Of a stretch of 64,000 nt of DNA, positions 3,761-7,006 are shown piece after piece. The translations under genes and the position numbers were made by a program. Position 1 is the stretch's first letter. Every line of letters begins with the position of its first letter. The stretch is from Holosporales bacterium (GTDB lineage: Bacteria > Pseudomonadota > Alphaproteobacteria > Holosporales > CAZGKG01), in assembly GCA_044361745.1 (NCBI GenBank), contig JBIKIF010000001.1:90274-154273 (forward strand). The letters run 5' to 3'. The notes beneath the pieces are model-generated. The model was given only the letters and a program-made list of their open reading frames with translations, did not search any database and had not been told where the DNA came from.

Positions 3761-4150
3761 TTAGGCAAGGCATTGGAATTGACCTGGAACCGTTGTGTTA
3801 ATCACCCCGGCCCACATACACATAAGCATAGACGGCTGACTCTGGACTGGCATCCCCCCGACCAAAGTGGTGGGGCTGGTGGGAACCCAAGGAGCGACCG
3901 TTGCGGGAATACAAGGGGCGGGTGTTGGCACCCCAAGGGCTGCCGCCGTCAAAGCAATCACCATTGGGTTTGCAGGAGACGTACACATGGCGAATGGGGG
4001 GACGTTTGCCATGGGAATATTGGTCATTATATTGGCAGCAGGCCTCCCACTTACCATCACTCTTGGAATTGGAAGAGCGGTCATAGGCATGGGTGCCATG
4101 CCAAAAGCACACTTGATACACGTTCCGAGACATCCCATTGGTGCGCCCAT
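3761..4150 (-). CDS. DUF4280 (PAAR-like) T6SS spike-tip protein
   Basis: 129 aa. Pattern C..C.FG.AP...LP..RV...G.PAA.I....P..N+PPF.MC.SPANP...A.TAAALGV.TP.PC.P......W.P.SPT.L.GG.P......L.C.W.G.I matches my memory of DUF4280. Located two genes downstream of vgrG. Confidence 0.8.
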   Translation of the reverse strand: MGAPMGCLGTCIKCAFGMAPMPMTALPIPRVMVSGRPAANIMTNIPMANVPPFAMCTSPANPMVIALTAAALGVPTPAPCIPATVAPWVPTSPTTLVGGMPVQSQPSMLMCMWAGVINTTVPGQFQCLA

Positions 4151-4151
4151 T

Positions 4152-4784
4152 TCAACCTCCTGAATTCATCCGTTTGCCGTCAGGTCCATAAAGAATTGTC
4201 GGGCCAAAAGGGCGCCCCCCCTGCCATAAAGACGTCTCCATCAAGACTCCTGTCTCATAGTAACGATAGCAATCCCCATCTTTGAGATTGCTGACATACT
4301 GGGTCCTTTCTAAAAGGGCGCCCGATGGATAATATGTGAGACTGGGCCCTTCTTTCTGGTCTGCTTGATAGTGCATCACCTGAACCACCCCTCCCGTATC
4401 ATTATAGCTGAGGAAGGGTCCTTGGAGTTTGCCTTTTTCATAAAACCCATGGGCAAGCAAAAGGCCCGTCTCGGCATAGAAGGTGGCAGGCCCGGTTTGC
4501 TTGCCGTTTTTGTAGGCGCATTGCAGAAGAATCATCCCCTTAGAATAAATTTCAAAGGGCCCCTCCAATTGATCGTTTTGATAAGTCATCCGTTGGGTCA
4601 GGTGGCCATCGTCATCATACAGACGGGCTTCCCCTTCCAGGACACCGTTCACGTAAGATAGAACACGCTGAAGTTTTCCATTTTGGATCTCTTCCACAGG
4701 TCCATTTAAAACAGGAGGCCCTTCCGGGGGGAGGGGGGTTTCTGCGGTTGGAATCACAGGTTTCTCAGAAGGGGTTTCGGTCAT
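4152..4784 (-). CDS. YwqK-type MORN-variant repeat protein with Pro-rich N-terminus
   Basis: 210 aa. About seven tandem ~23-aa repeats of the Y..G.L......Y..G...G form (for example YYPSGALLERTQYVSNLKDGDCYRYYETGVLME). Its stop codon lies 1 nt from the DUF4280 start. Confidence 0.7.
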   Translation of the reverse strand: MTETPSEKPVIPTAETPLPPEGPPVLNGPVEEIQNGKLQRVLSYVNGVLEGEARLYDDDGHLTQRMTYQNDQLEGPFEIYSKGMILLQCAYKNGKQTGPATFYAETGLLLAHGFYEKGKLQGPFLSYNDTGGVVQVMHYQADQKEGPSLTYYPSGALLERTQYVSNLKDGDCYRYYETGVLMETSLWQGGRPFGPTILYGPDGKRMNSGG

Positions 4785-4861
4785 GGCTGTCTTCGTCCTT
4801 CTCGTTTTGTCTGTCTCAATTTGAGGTCCACTGTTGTGTGTTCTTCAGGATATCACTGTCA

Positions 4862-7006
4862 TTAATTAATCATCACCATCGCGCCCTTCACCTGAGTCAT
4901 CGCAGTCCCTTGGGCAGAGACCATCGTTCCCTTCACTTCCGATTGAACCGTTCCCTCAAGGCTAGCCTTCACGGTCCCCTTCAGAGCCAATTGAAGACCC
5001 TCCATCGTCGCATTTGTTGTGGCCTTGAGATCAATTCCCATCGTTTTGACCGTAAATTTTCCTGTGGGTGAATCAAACACAAAACCCCCCATCGCTTTGA
5101 ATGTCATTTTGCCGGTTTTGGCGTTTACGAGCACATCCCCCCCGGAGACCTCTAACGTATAGCCTCCCCCGGAGATTGAGACAGATTGCTTGCCGTTGGT
5201 TAATTTTGTCTCATCATTTCCCGTAATTTTGGTGGTCCGGTTGCCTTTGGAAAGAGTCTGGGTCAAGTTTCCATCTGAGAGGGTGGTCTCCGAATTCCCT
5301 TTGGTCAGGGTAATTTTGACGTTCCCTTCTTTCGTCTCAAAAATCGTGTCTCCCTTTTCAAGGGTCAGCTTGATCCCTCCGTCCTTGACCAAGGCTTCCA
5401 CAGCATTTTTCACCAGCATAGAGAATTTTTTCTCCGCTTGGATATAAAACTCCTCCTCCCCCTTTTTATCCGTCAGCCGGAGTTCATTGTAGGTCTCAGC
5501 AGTTCCTTTTTCGGTGGAGTGGGATTTGATGCCACTTTGGGTTGGATCTTTCGAGACATAGGGGGCTTCGTGGATTCCGTTAAAAACGGATCCAACGATC
5601 AGGGGGCGATCCGGATCCTGGTTTAAGAAAGTCACAACCACTTCTTGCCCAATGCGTGGTGTGGAGACCATCCCCCATCCTGACCCCGCCCAACCTGTTG
5701 CCACACGCACCCAACAAGATCTTTTATCGGGAGGCGCTTCAGAATCCTTCCGACGATCCCAGTGAAATTTAATTTTAATGCGACCGTCTGCGTCCGTATA
5801 AATTTCTTTATCTTTAGGCCCCACAACAATGGCTGTCTCCAGAGGGGCTTTGGGTTTCTCTGTGAGTCTTCGGGGACGAAATGGGGTTTTCGCTAAAATA
5901 GCTTCAAAGACGTTGTGATAATCCTCTCTTGCACTTTCAGTCCCGTAAAAGTGACGAATGCGAAGGACCACATAGTCCGCATCATTGAGAGATTTGTCCG
6001 GGTGATTTTTTATTTTAAATTTGACGCCAGATGACAGCAAAGGATTCGTCGACCGCCCCCGAAAGATCACTTTTTGTGCCTCTTCAGCTTCTAACAAGAT
6101 TTTGTTTATTTTTTCCCCTTCGGGTTTTTTCTCAAAACACCCGGGATAGTTATAAATACTCAAATCCGGAAGATGACTCTCAGAACGTCCCGTTTTTGAA
6201 AACAGATCATCATCCGGTTTTTTTGGAGAATAATCAGTTGTAGAAAATTCGGTAGAGGTTGCTGTTTGGATGCGTTGAAAAGACTGCAAGTGTTTAAACA
6301 GAGAAACATCCCCGGTTTTGTTGTCATTAAAGGTTAGATGTCCCCCAGAGAGAGGCTGATAATCTTTCCCGTCATCCGCCAGAATCAGCTTGTGTTTTTT
6401 TTCTGAAAATTGAAAAAAATAAAAGATGCCTGCTTCTTCTGCCATGCGGGAAATGAAATCAAAGTGACTTTCCTGGTATTGAACGCAAAAATCCCGCTTG
6501 TCTTTTCCGTTGCTCGTATTTTTTATTTCTACTTCTGCCATTTTGTTTTTTTTGAGCACGTCCTGAATAATATCAATCGTTCTCATATCATTAAAAATTT
6601 GTGAATCTTTTGTAAGGGACAAGAACCAAAATTCCGGGACCACCCTGAAGCGCACCAGAGGAAAATCATCTATAGGGGATTCTTCTTTGAAATGGCTGAT
6701 GAGCCCGTGCCAAAAACGACAGTCTTTGAGACCCTGTGTGTCCGTCTCCTTGAAAGTAAGTGCAGCGCTCTTTCCAATACAGTTATCTGGGATTTTAGAT
6801 TTTTCTGTGAGGCGTGCCAAAACCTCCGCCTGGAAAGGGCGGGAGATTTCTTCGATCCATTCAAAATTTAAGACATCGTGAATATTGAGAGACTCAACAG
6901 TGGCGATCAATGACTGTCTTTTGCCAATAATCGGATGGTTCGCCTGGGTGTCCTGGATTGTTAACGCCTCTTCCCCTGTCCAAGGTTTAGATGTTGGTGT
7001 TGCCAT
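4862..7006 (-). CDS. vgrG: type VI secretion system spike protein VgrG (TssI)
   Basis: Signature RSCWVRVATGWAGSGWGMVSTPRIGQEVVVTFLNQDPDRPLIVGSVFNG. The C-terminus is a beta-helix-like repeat ending MVMIN. ATG at 7006 has a GAGGGG upstream; the ORF track starts it at TTG 7024. Confidence 0.9.
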   Translation of the reverse strand: MATPTSKPWTGEEALTIQDTQANHPIIGKRQSLIATVESLNIHDVLNFEWIEEISRPFQAEVLARLTEKSKIPDNCIGKSAALTFKETDTQGLKDCRFWHGLISHFKEESPIDDFPLVRFRVVPEFWFLSLTKDSQIFNDMRTIDIIQDVLKKNKMAEVEIKNTSNGKDKRDFCVQYQESHFDFISRMAEEAGIFYFFQFSEKKHKLILADDGKDYQPLSGGHLTFNDNKTGDVSLFKHLQSFQRIQTATSTEFSTTDYSPKKPDDDLFSKTGRSESHLPDLSIYNYPGCFEKKPEGEKINKILLEAEEAQKVIFRGRSTNPLLSSGVKFKIKNHPDKSLNDADYVVLRIRHFYGTESAREDYHNVFEAILAKTPFRPRRLTEKPKAPLETAIVVGPKDKEIYTDADGRIKIKFHWDRRKDSEAPPDKRSCWVRVATGWAGSGWGMVSTPRIGQEVVVTFLNQDPDRPLIVGSVFNGIHEAPYVSKDPTQSGIKSHSTEKGTAETYNELRLTDKKGEEEFYIQAEKKFSMLVKNAVEALVKDGGIKLTLEKGDTIFETKEGNVKITLTKGNSETTLSDGNLTQTLSKGNRTTKITGNDETKLTNGKQSVSISGGGYTLEVSGGDVLVNAKTGKMTFKAMGGFVFDSPTGKFTVKTMGIDLKATTNATMEGLQLALKGTVKASLEGTVQSEVKGTMVSAQGTAMTQVKGAMVMIN

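What the first reader, a model, noticed from the sequence alone, without database searches (positions are those of the whole stretch)
3761..7006. VgrG / YwqK-type MORN-repeat protein / DUF4280 triad with no recognisable toxin
The spike module holds three tightly packed minus-strand genes. VgrG ends in ordinary beta-helix repeats with no effector domain. The PAAR-like DUF4280 protein is a bare 129 aa with no extension. The only non-structural gene is a 210-aa protein with a Pro-rich N-terminus and about seven YwqK/MORN-variant repeats, and its stop codon lies 1 nt from the DUF4280 start. YwqK proteins are known as immunity partners of YwqJ-type toxins, but no toxin gene is adjacent, because the next gene is a convergent aminotransferase. 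The repeat protein could therefore be a new spike-bound cargo, a new adaptor class, or an orphan immunity gene kept in a spike operon.
Basis: partly seen in the sequence, partly recalled or inferred. Interest (0 to 1): 0.7.

Follow-up and report, generated by a model that had tools for sequence, protein, structure and literature searches.

The report
TseF-type MORN passenger on T6SS spike
The three genes are a real, widely conserved type VI secretion "spike" module (VgrG spike, MORN-repeat protein, DUF4280 cap) of the kind already described around the Pseudomonas effector TseF, so the repeat protein is most likely a non-toxic passenger carried on the spike rather than an orphan immunity gene or a new class of cargo.

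Summary
Three minus-strand genes encode VgrG (4862-7006/7024), a 210-aa protein with seven MORN_2 repeats (4152-4784) and a bare DUF4280 PAAR-like cap (3761-4150). They are tightly packed, and none carries a toxin domain.

The arrangement is not chance.
- In a survey anchored on DUF4280, 39 of 63 informative metagenomic loci had a MORN gene directly upstream.
- Of 25 vgrG-linked loci, 23 had vgrG-MORN-DUF4280.
- The triad also occurs in Ca. Finniella, Cupriavidus, Paraburkholderia phymatum T6SS-b and Azospirillum.
- The three genes diverge together (Mantel r 0.80-0.93).
- In one alphaproteobacterial lineage the MORN array is inserted inside the DUF4280 protein (at least 10 fusion proteins).

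The module is already in the literature. TseF (PA2374) of P. aeruginosa H3-T6SS is a MORN_2 protein that sits next to vgrG3, with the DUF4280 gene PA2375 in the same locus. TseF is secreted and binds VgrG3. A [ywqK-vgrG] pair has been noted in Holosporales endosymbionts and read there as immunity.

My best reading is a TseF-family passenger loaded on the spike head. A cap-assembly chaperone role remains possible. Immunity is unlikely. I rate it a new member of a known kind, of modest interest.

The parts
4862..7024 (-). vgrG (TssI) spike gene. The ORF runs from TTG at 7024; the likely start is the ATG at 7006. There is no C-terminal effector domain.
   Evidence: ORF. Phage_GPD 9.5e-69, Phage_base_V, Gp5_trimer_C. 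TIGR03361 2.7e-140.
4152..4784 (-). 210-aa MORN_2 repeat protein (TseF-type, annotated 'YwqK'). It has a Pro-rich disordered N-terminus (residues 1-27) followed by seven MORN repeats that form an elongated beta-hairpin array (residues 28-199).
   Evidence: PF07661 5.6e-16; repeat register. AF2 pLDDT 94.3, pTM 0.81; best PDB folds are MORN1, junctophilin and axonemal MORN proteins. No signal peptide is visible in the sequence.
3761..4150 (-). DUF4280 PAAR-like cap protein, 129 aa, with no extension. The four family-invariant cysteines are C14, C56, C80 and C111.
   Evidence: PF14107 2.5e-24. IglG-like 1.5e-14, below cutoff; invariant Cys columns.
4156..4161 (-). AGGAGG Shine-Dalgarno for the DUF4280 gene, embedded in the last codons of the MORN gene. 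The stop (TGA 4154-4152) is followed by 1 nt and then the ATG (4150-4148). This suggests translational coupling.
   Evidence: read directly from the sequence.
3727..3752 (-). 9-bp inverted repeat (CAACGGGAC...GTCCCGTTG) in the 58-nt gap between the convergent DUF4280 and aminotransferase genes. It is a possible operon-end hairpin but has no T tract.
   Evidence: read directly from the sequence. The consensus terminator scan did not call it.
9578..15791 (-). tssL-tssM-tssA block of the same T6SS. Housekeeping genes (HU, Vut_1, YgfZ-like) separate it from the spike module.
   Evidence: TssA TIGR03363 2.3e-64; TssM IcmF-related_N 2.6e-52; DotU 1.4e-24.

Best explanation
The 210-aa protein belongs to the TseF-type family of MORN_2 proteins. 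These are encoded in a fixed vgrG / MORN / DUF4280 spike module of proteobacterial T6SS, including the P. phymatum T6SS-b cluster (classed i4a) and the P. aeruginosa H3 locus.

Proposed mechanism:
1. The three genes are expressed as one operon. The MORN and DUF4280 genes are translationally coupled.
2. The VgrG trimer forms the spike, and the four-cysteine DUF4280 domain caps it.
3. The MORN array is an elongated, non-enzymatic beta-sheet binding module behind a flexible Pro-rich leader. It attaches non-covalently to the spike head, on the VgrG C-terminal region and/or the DUF4280 cap.
4. It is fired out with the spike.
5. Outside the cell it acts as a binder or tether for a lineage-specific ligand, not as a toxin. 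That would explain why no immunity gene accompanies it.

Shown here: gene order, domains, fold, conservation of the triad, joint divergence of the three genes, and natural MORN-in-DUF4280 fusions.
Taken from the literature: TseF secretion and VgrG3 binding in P. aeruginosa.
Inferred: that this particular protein is secreted, that it contacts DUF4280, and what it binds. A host membrane or vesicle component is a guess for an intracellular alphaproteobacterium.
For: Conservation of the triad:
- Genome scan: 4 of 66 MORN_2 loci carry vgrG-MORN-DUF4280 (two Ca. Finniella, Cupriavidus numazuensis, and an alphaproteobacterial MAG); the rest are generic MORN_2 proteins of other phyla.
- Metagenome scan anchored on DUF4280: 39 of 63 loci with at least 700 bp upstream have MORN directly upstream. 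Of 25 loci with vgrG upstream, 23 have MORN in between.
- The same triad is seen in P. phymatum pBPHY01 and Cupriavidus sp. P-10. In Azospirillum brasilense the DUF4280 gene is adjacent but convergent.

Module inheritance: Mantel correlations on 24 non-redundant triads are VgrG-MORN 0.93, VgrG-DUF4280 0.90 and MORN-DUF4280 0.80, all with p <= 5e-4.

Physical link: in L044, L068 and proteins P0052-P0060 the MORN array is inserted after residue ~31 of DUF4280, between Gly/Ala-rich linkers. All four cysteines are kept, and the gene sits directly after vgrG.

Fold: the AF2 model has pLDDT 94.3. Its nearest solved folds are MORN scaffolds, and no enzyme fold appears.

Literature:
- TseF (PA2374) has MORN motifs, lies next to vgrG3, shows H3-T6SS-dependent secretion, and GST-TseF pulls down VgrG3 (PMC5379069).
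- The legend of Suppl. Fig. [quoted passage not shown]
- PA2375, in the H3-T6SS locus, is DUF4280 (PMC7376260).
[quoted passage not shown] 3 legend lists a YwqK domain among the effector domains (PMC7970981).
- In Francisella the gene between vgrG and the DUF4280 gene iglG encodes IglF, which binds IglG (PMC5014421).
Against: - I could not retrieve the PA2374 sequence, so direct sequence homology between the window protein and TseF is untested. The link rests on shared Pfam family, gene position and published descriptions.
- The closest homologue found (P0001, 46% identity) is not next to vgrG or DUF4280.
- TseF's ligand, PQS, is specific to Pseudomonas, so the function here is unknown.
- There is no evidence of an interface. 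The AF2 model of a natural fusion was poor (pLDDT 54).
- Near-obligate co-occurrence and translational coupling would fit an assembly factor equally well.
Confidence: 0.6

Rival explanations
1. The MORN protein is primarily a cap-assembly chaperone or adaptor for the DUF4280 PAAR-like protein, analogous to DUF2169 for DUF4150/PIPY caps. It would keep the cap soluble and mount it on VgrG, and any export would be incidental.
For: - MORN lies between vgrG and DUF4280 in 23 of 25 vgrG-linked loci.
- The three genes diverge together.
- The 1-nt spacing and embedded SD suggest coupled, equimolar synthesis.
- DUF4280 proteins, including PA2375, were insoluble when expressed alone (PMC5014421).
- There is a precedent for a vgrG-chaperone-PAAR-like triad (PMC11883445).
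Against: - TseF is recovered from culture supernatant in a T6SS-dependent way (PMC5379069).
- Natural fusions place the MORN array on the exported cap itself.
- Three vgrG-DUF4280 loci lack MORN (L088, L121, L150).
- Closely related DUF4280 genes (52-61% identity) in loci without vgrG, some with an AAA ATPase gene directly upstream, also lack it.
- This reading is not mutually exclusive with the cargo reading.
Confidence: 0.3
2. It is a YwqK-type immunity or antitoxin protein. This is how it is annotated, and how the ywqK-vgrG pair was read in the Holosporales endosymbiont papers. It would protect against a toxin carried by VgrG or encoded elsewhere.
For: Database names such as 'toxin-antitoxin system YwqK family antitoxin' are attached to MORN_2 proteins. 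The endosymbiont papers also interpret it this way (10.1101/719211; PMC8163844).
Against: - VgrG and DUF4280 have no toxin domain, and there is no toxin gene in the window.
- The gene is single-copy, is inherited with vgrG and DUF4280, and is not polymorphic as effector-immunity pairs usually are.
- In relatives it is inserted into the secreted cap protein.
- The characterised family member, TseF, is a secreted substrate.
Confidence: 0.05
3. The adjacency is fortuitous. On this view a generic MORN_2 gene simply landed in the spike operon of this genome.
For: MORN_2 is a huge family: 19,132 representatives at E <= 0.001. In the genome scan, 62 of 66 loci had no vgrG or DUF4280 nearby.
Against: The same order recurs across Alpha- and Betaproteobacteria and in dozens of metagenomic loci, and also occurs as gene fusions.
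Confidence: 0.01

Closest known systems
TseF (PA2374), P. aeruginosa H3-T6SS effector, encoded next to vgrG3 (PA2373); the DUF4280 gene PA2375 is in the same locus
   Same: A small cytoplasmic MORN_2-motif protein encoded directly next to vgrG, with a bare DUF4280 cap gene alongside. There is no toxin and no immunity gene. The family was described as syntenic with vgrG and PAAR genes in diverse bacteria (PMC5379069 and its supplement; PMC7376260).
   Different: TseF is 178 aa with three annotated MORN motifs; the window protein is 210 aa with seven repeats. TseF binds PQS, FptA and OprF for iron uptake, which is not expected in an intracellular alphaproteobacterium.
Bphy_5985-5987 of Paraburkholderia phymatum T6SS-b (subtype i4a): vgrG, 'YwqK family antitoxin', PAAR-like
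   Same: The same three genes in the same order. Against the window proteins, MORN is 30% identical (E 3e-20), DUF4280 56% and VgrG 34%. PMC8356804 annotates them but does not test them.
   Different: In P. phymatum the triad sits inside a complete single-operon T6SS cluster and is followed by a small membrane protein and transporter genes. Its MORN protein has a C-terminal LEKWVRG-type tail that the window protein lacks.
[ywqK-vgrG] pair of Holosporales / Paracaedibacter-like endosymbionts (George et al. 10.1101/719211; Midha et al. PMC8163844)
   Same: T6SS genes are scattered into small blocks, including tssL-tssM-tssA and a vgrG-ywqK pair, as in this window. The nearest triad relatives found here are from Ca. 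Finniella.
   Different: Those papers read YwqK as an immunity or antitoxin partner of VgrG. In the passages retrieved they do not mention the DUF4280 gene or the fusion forms.
Francisella vgrG-iglF-iglG
   Same: The gene between vgrG and the DUF4280 cap gene encodes a protein that binds the cap and is thought to be delivered with it (PMC5014421).
   Different: IglF was not described as a MORN protein there. Binding uses a Francisella-specific alpha-helical N-terminal extension of IglG that the window's DUF4280 lacks.
DUF2169 chaperone with DUF4150 (PIPY) PAAR-like caps
   Same: An accessory gene genetically linked to vgrG and a non-canonical PAAR-like cap (PMC11883445).
   Different: The fold and family are unrelated. 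The paper proposes DUF2169 as a molecular chaperone that acts on the spike complex before export, whereas the MORN family member TseF is secreted.
Eukaryotic MORN-repeat scaffolds (MORN1, junctophilin-2, SET7/9 N-domain)
   Same: The same elongated single-layer beta-hairpin repeat fold (Foldseek TM about 0.5-0.6; phmmer hit to SET7/9 at 5.6e-5).
   Different: This is only a fold-level resemblance (13-20% identity), with no functional link.

Membership tests
TseF family (MORN_2 T6SS substrates) | Contains MORN_2 (PF07661) motifs | tested here: met
   PF07661, E 5.6e-16, 57 bits (cutoff 29.6); seven repeats.
TseF family (MORN_2 T6SS substrates) | Gene adjacent to and co-oriented with vgrG, with a PAAR or PAAR-like gene alongside | tested here: met
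   The same order is seen in 23 of 25 vgrG-linked DUF4280 loci.
TseF family (MORN_2 T6SS substrates) | Sequence homology to PA2374 beyond the generic repeat signal | not testable with these tools
   The PA2374 sequence could not be retrieved. The profile and representative searches were swamped by long MORN_2 proteins. Homology to the P. phymatum and Cupriavidus triad members was shown instead.
TseF family (MORN_2 T6SS substrates) | T6SS-dependent secretion and binding to the cognate VgrG | not testable with these tools
   This needs an experiment. It is shown only for TseF itself (PMC5379069).
YwqK-type immunity/antitoxin | Encoded next to a cognate toxin (YwqJ/LXG-type or other polymorphic toxin) | tested here: not met
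   VgrG, DUF4280 and the flanking genes have no toxin domain. None was found in the rest of the window.
DUF4280 PAAR-like caps | PF14107 domain with four conserved cysteines | tested here: met
   E 2.5e-24. C14, C56, C80 and C111 are invariant in alignments A2 and A3.
VgrG (TssI) | gp27/gp5 modules. An 'evolved' VgrG would also carry a C-terminal effector domain. | tested here: met
   TIGR03361 2.7e-140; only Gp5_trimer_C and a weak DUF2345 match after the OB domain, so it is a plain VgrG, not an evolved one.
Known T6SS adaptor/chaperone families (Tap/Tec DUF4123, Eag DUF1795, DUF2169) | Match to the family profile | tested here: not met
   The Pfam and NCBIfam scans of the 210-aa protein returned only MORN_2 and a below-cutoff LIC20035 adhesin match.

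The most novel reading that the evidence does not exclude
The MORN array may not be an optional effector. It may instead be the dedicated, cap-bound partner of DUF4280 tips in this T6SS lineage, which would make 'TseF' part of the spike-head architecture. In some alphaproteobacterial endosymbiont relatives it is literally inserted into the cap protein. In intracellular bacteria it would then be the host-facing contact surface of the spike, and the iron/PQS role in Pseudomonas would be a lineage-specific add-on. In the searched library, no paper mentions both DUF4280 and MORN, so the DUF4280::MORN insertion fusions appear to be undescribed.
Probability: 0.3. Interest if true: 0.6.

Novelty: new member of a known kind. 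Interest (0 to 1): 0.3.

Why it matters
The result corrects a misleading annotation. 'YwqK antitoxin' or 'immunity' next to vgrG is better read as a TseF-type spike passenger.

It also explains the lack of a toxin in this spike operon: the module carries a binding protein, not a killing enzyme.

The survey adds two points that may be useful to T6SS researchers:
- The MORN gene is almost always present between vgrG and this clade of DUF4280 caps, and it diverges together with them.
- Natural domain-insertion fusions place the MORN array on the cap. This gives a concrete, testable loading route for TseF-type proteins.

For endosymbiont biology, it nominates one specific protein as the likely T6SS-delivered factor.

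Tried and rejected
- Single-sequence search with the 210-aa protein: only one near homologue was found (P0001, 46% identity), and it is not linked to vgrG. The rest were generic MORN_2 proteins.
- Profile search with 13 triad MORN proteins and the exhaustive representative search: both were swamped by long multi-repeat MORN_2 proteins and did not yield TseF.
- Attempt to recognise P. aeruginosa tseF among the fetched loci using the published primer sequences: no match.
- AF2 on a natural DUF4280::MORN fusion, intended to read out an interface: pLDDT 54, with the cap part below 30, so it was unusable.
- The AFDB Foldseek library was not available.
- Alignment A2 was too divergent for a metagenome scan; I used A3 instead.
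- TeoL of Cupriavidus necator (Reut_A1725, downstream of vgrG1): the paper does not state its domain content, so I do not claim it as a family member.
- The PLSDB records for the Cupriavidus, Azospirillum and Paraburkholderia hits carry no annotation; I checked gene content by tblastn instead.
- My greedy ORF calls in high-GC loci were noisy. Three 'extended DUF4280' candidates (L085, L073, L078) turned out to be wrong-frame calls.
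Full report
**What is in the window**

Three co-oriented minus-strand ORFs occupy 3761-7024. Pfam and NCBIfam identify them as follows:
- VgrG, 4862-7024. It matches TIGR03361 at E 2.7e-140, plus Phage_GPD, Phage_base_V and Gp5_trimer_C. Only beta-helix repeats follow residue 608.
- A 210-aa MORN_2 protein, 4152-4784 (PF07661, E 5.6e-16).
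- A 129-aa protein, 3761-4150, that is a DUF4280 PAAR-like domain and nothing more (PF14107, E 2.5e-24).

The MORN protein has seven repeats of 23-24 residues, starting at residues 44, 68, 91, 115, 139, 163 and 187. Its first 27 residues are 30% proline.

Read from the sequence:
- The vgrG-MORN gap is 77 nt.
- The MORN stop codon (TGA, 4154-4152) is 1 nt from the DUF4280 ATG.
- A perfect AGGAGG (4161-4156) lies within the last MORN codons, which suggests translational coupling.
- A 9-bp inverted repeat (3727-3752) sits in the 58-nt gap before the convergent aminotransferase gene (2488-3702).

All descriptive points of the finding are therefore correct.

**Genomic setting**

Upstream of vgrG lie genes for HU, a Vut_1 transporter and a YgfZ-like protein. 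Beyond them are tssA, tssM and tssL (9578-15791), followed by thyX and an alphaproteobacterial-type dnaX with a DUF3646 domain. The rest of the window holds housekeeping and flagellar genes. There is no second vgrG and no recognisable effector-immunity pair.

[quoted passage not shown] George et al. report a YwqK-family gene next to vgrG in all the diplonemid endosymbionts they studied (10.1101/719211). The nearest triad relatives I found are from Ca. Finniella. The source organism is therefore probably an intracellular alphaproteobacterium of that general group. This is an inference.

**Is the triad conserved?**

A scan of one genome per species with a MORN alignment gave 66 loci. I searched them with tblastn using the window's VgrG and DUF4280. 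Four loci carry vgrG-MORN-DUF4280 in that order:
- two Ca. Finniella loci (L002, L003);
- Cupriavidus numazuensis (L041);
- an alphaproteobacterial MAG (L044).

The other 62 loci, mostly Bacteroidota, Chlamydiota and Fusobacteriota, do not. The association therefore belongs to a proteobacterial subfamily and not to MORN_2 as a whole.

I then anchored a metagenome scan on the DUF4280 protein. It returned 80 loci at 49-62% identity.
- Of 63 loci with at least 700 bp upstream, 39 have a MORN gene directly upstream of DUF4280.
- Of 35 loci with at least 3 kb upstream, 25 have vgrG upstream, and 23 of those 25 have MORN in between.

The usual wider order is clpV-vgrG-MORN-DUF4280-small ORF ... tssK-tssL-tssM. 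Loci without MORN are mostly not vgrG-linked. They have, for example, an AAA ATPase gene, a ribonucleotide reductase gene or a UPF0114 gene upstream.

The triad is also present on replicons of Cupriavidus sp. P-10 and Paraburkholderia phymatum STM815. In Azospirillum brasilense Sp7 the DUF4280 gene is adjacent but convergent.

On 24 non-redundant triads, the pairwise identities of the three proteins are strongly correlated. Mantel r is 0.93 for VgrG-MORN, 0.90 for VgrG-DUF4280 and 0.80 for MORN-DUF4280, all with p <= 5e-4. Mean pairwise identities are 72% (DUF4280), 51% (VgrG) and 37% (MORN). The MORN gene is thus a fixed part of the module that diverges with the other two genes, not a swappable cargo. 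Shared phylogeny contributes to these correlations. What they exclude is frequent replacement.

**Natural fusions**

In L044 a single 322-aa ORF directly after vgrG contains both MORN_2 and DUF4280. A search with it found nine further fusion proteins, 305-361 aa long and 41-52% identical (P0052-P0060). One of them lies in the context ruvBA | vgrG - fusion | convergent Bax1-I gene (L068).

Alignment A2 shows the topology:
- The first ~30 residues align with the N-terminus of stand-alone DUF4280, including the first invariant cysteine.
- A Gly/Ala-rich linker follows, then the MORN repeats, then a second linker.
- The remainder of DUF4280 comes last, with the other three invariant cysteines.

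The MORN array is therefore inserted into a loop of an otherwise intact cap protein. By Rosetta-stone logic, this argues that the separate MORN protein of the window also sits on the cap, or at least on the spike head, and travels with it.

I tried to obtain a structural read-out from a fusion. The model was poor (pLDDT 54, with the cap part below 30), so no interface can be claimed.

**The protein itself**

AlphaFold2 gives a confident model (pLDDT 94.3, pTM 0.81). It shows an uninterrupted array of beta-hairpins from residue 28 to 199 behind a disordered N-terminus.

The best solved-structure matches are:
- Plasmodium, Toxoplasma and Trypanosoma MORN1 (TM about 0.6);
- axonemal MORN proteins;
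- junctophilin-2;
- the SET7/9 N-domain.

No catalytic fold appears. Across triad members, only the repeat glycines are invariant. There is no signal peptide. This is the profile of a binding scaffold, not an enzyme or toxin.

**What is already known**

- Lin et al. 2017 identified PA2374 (TseF), a 178-aa protein with MORN motifs encoded next to vgrG3 at the end of the P. aeruginosa H3-T6SS locus. Its release into the supernatant depends on H3-T6SS, and GST-TseF retains VgrG3 and VgrG1b. It binds PQS in outer-membrane vesicles and the receptors FptA and OprF to bring in iron (PMC5379069).
- The legend of their Supplementary Fig. [quoted passage not shown]
- Wood et al. identify PA2375, in the H3-T6SS locus, as DUF4280 (PMC7376260).
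[quoted passage not shown] The legend of their Fig. 3 lists a YwqK domain among the effector domains (PMC7970981).
- Hug et al. list vgrG, a 'YwqK family antitoxin' and a 'PAAR-like protein' (Bphy_5985-5987) in the i4a T6SS-b cluster of P. phymatum (PMC8356804). I confirmed that locus at the sequence level. Compared with the window, MORN is 30% identical (E 3e-20), DUF4280 56% and VgrG 34%.
- In Francisella the gene between vgrG and the DUF4280 gene iglG encodes IglF, which binds IglG (PMC5014421).
- A conceptually parallel triad, vgrG-DUF2169-DUF4150, has a chaperone in the middle position (PMC11883445).

**Interpretation**

The most economical reading is that the 210-aa protein is a TseF-type passenger. 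It would be loaded non-covalently on the VgrG/DUF4280 spike head and expelled with it, and it would act as a ligand-binding or tethering module. That explains the absence of both toxin and immunity genes. I give this about 0.6.

A role as a cap-assembly factor (about 0.3) is supported by three observations: near-obligate co-occurrence, coupled translation, and the reported insolubility of DUF4280 proteins expressed alone. It is compatible with the passenger reading.

The immunity reading used in the endosymbiont papers and in database names is poorly supported (about 0.05). Chance adjacency is excluded.

The ligand in an intracellular bacterium is unknown, because PQS is not expected there.

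**Limits**

- I could not obtain the PA2374 sequence, so TseF membership rests on Pfam family, gene position, published descriptions and demonstrated homology to the Paraburkholderia and Cupriavidus members.
- The closest homologue of all (P0001, 46% identity), from an organism that encodes an ATP/ADP translocase, lies between a RecN-like gene and tlc, away from any vgrG. Unlinked copies therefore exist.
- Whether the genome holds other vgrG islands cannot be judged from 64 kb.

**Verdict**

However, the module is a new member of a known, published kind. The DUF4280::MORN insertion fusions and the quantitative linkage to this DUF4280 clade appear to be undescribed: no paper in the searched library mentions both DUF4280 and MORN. 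These are the only parts with some novelty. Interest is about 0.3.

Noticed in passing
L044:9863-10831; L068:5709-6626; proteins P0052-P0060: A family of 305-361-aa proteins in which a MORN_2 array is inserted into a loop of DUF4280, after residue ~31 and between Gly/Ala-rich linkers. The gene lies directly after vgrG, next to ruvAB, in relatives of Ca. Finniella. In the searched library no paper mentions both DUF4280 and MORN.
   Followed up: partly
window 15792-16951: No tssK-sized ORF lies upstream of tssL, although related endosymbionts are reported to have tssK-tssL-tssM-tssA. Only short ORFs are present; two of them (15987-16346 and 16350-16568) have signal-peptide-like N-termini.
   Followed up: partly
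window 10646-14935: The 1429-aa TssM matches family profiles only over its N-terminal ~450 residues (IcmF-related_N; TIGR03348 below cutoff). The C-terminal ~1000 residues have no Pfam hit, which suggests a divergent membrane complex.
   Followed up: no
L041:5720-5768; L153 ~9640-9672; many betaproteobacterial loci (L075, L082, L125, L142): Burkholderiales-type triad MORN proteins end in a conserved tail, (L/F)E(K/R)(L/W)(V/F)(K/R)G, just before the DUF4280 gene. The tail is absent from the window protein, the Finniella proteins and the 188-190-aa soil group. It may be a docking motif.
   Followed up: no
L041:6170-6454; L153 ~10090 onward; L074, L075, L111: In betaproteobacterial clusters a small (about 94-140 aa) protein follows DUF4280. 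In L041 and L153 it has a hydrophobic N-terminus. In Cupriavidus and Paraburkholderia it is followed by solute-binding, dicarboxylate-symporter and racemase genes. Nothing equivalent follows in the window.
   Followed up: no
L076, L084 (upstream of the DUF4280 gene); L113:5473-6375: Close DUF4280 homologues (54-61% identity) occur without vgrG or MORN. Some lie next to an AAA ATPase gene, a context possibly like an extracellular contractile injection system. One carries a ~175-aa N-terminal extension.
   Followed up: partly
L151 (Azospirillum brasilense Sp7 plasmid p1) 9777-13164: vgrG and the MORN gene are co-oriented, but the DUF4280 gene is on the opposite strand, convergent with them. This is a variant of the triad.
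   Followed up: no
window 36653-47120: A flagellar gene cluster (flgH, flgA, flgG/F-like, fliL, fliM, fliR, flhB) lies in what otherwise looks like an endosymbiont-type genome.
   Followed up: no
window 467-1090 (-) and 1328-1999 (+): Two divergent ORFs encode low-complexity, charged proteins with hydrophobic N-termini. The second has no Pfam match (the first was not scanned). They could be secreted proteins.
   Followed up: no
window 7932-8678 and 8543-9583: The listed ORFs for the Vut_1 transporter and the YgfZ-like folate-binding protein overlap by 136 nt. The second probably starts further downstream than the first in-frame start codon.
   Followed up: no
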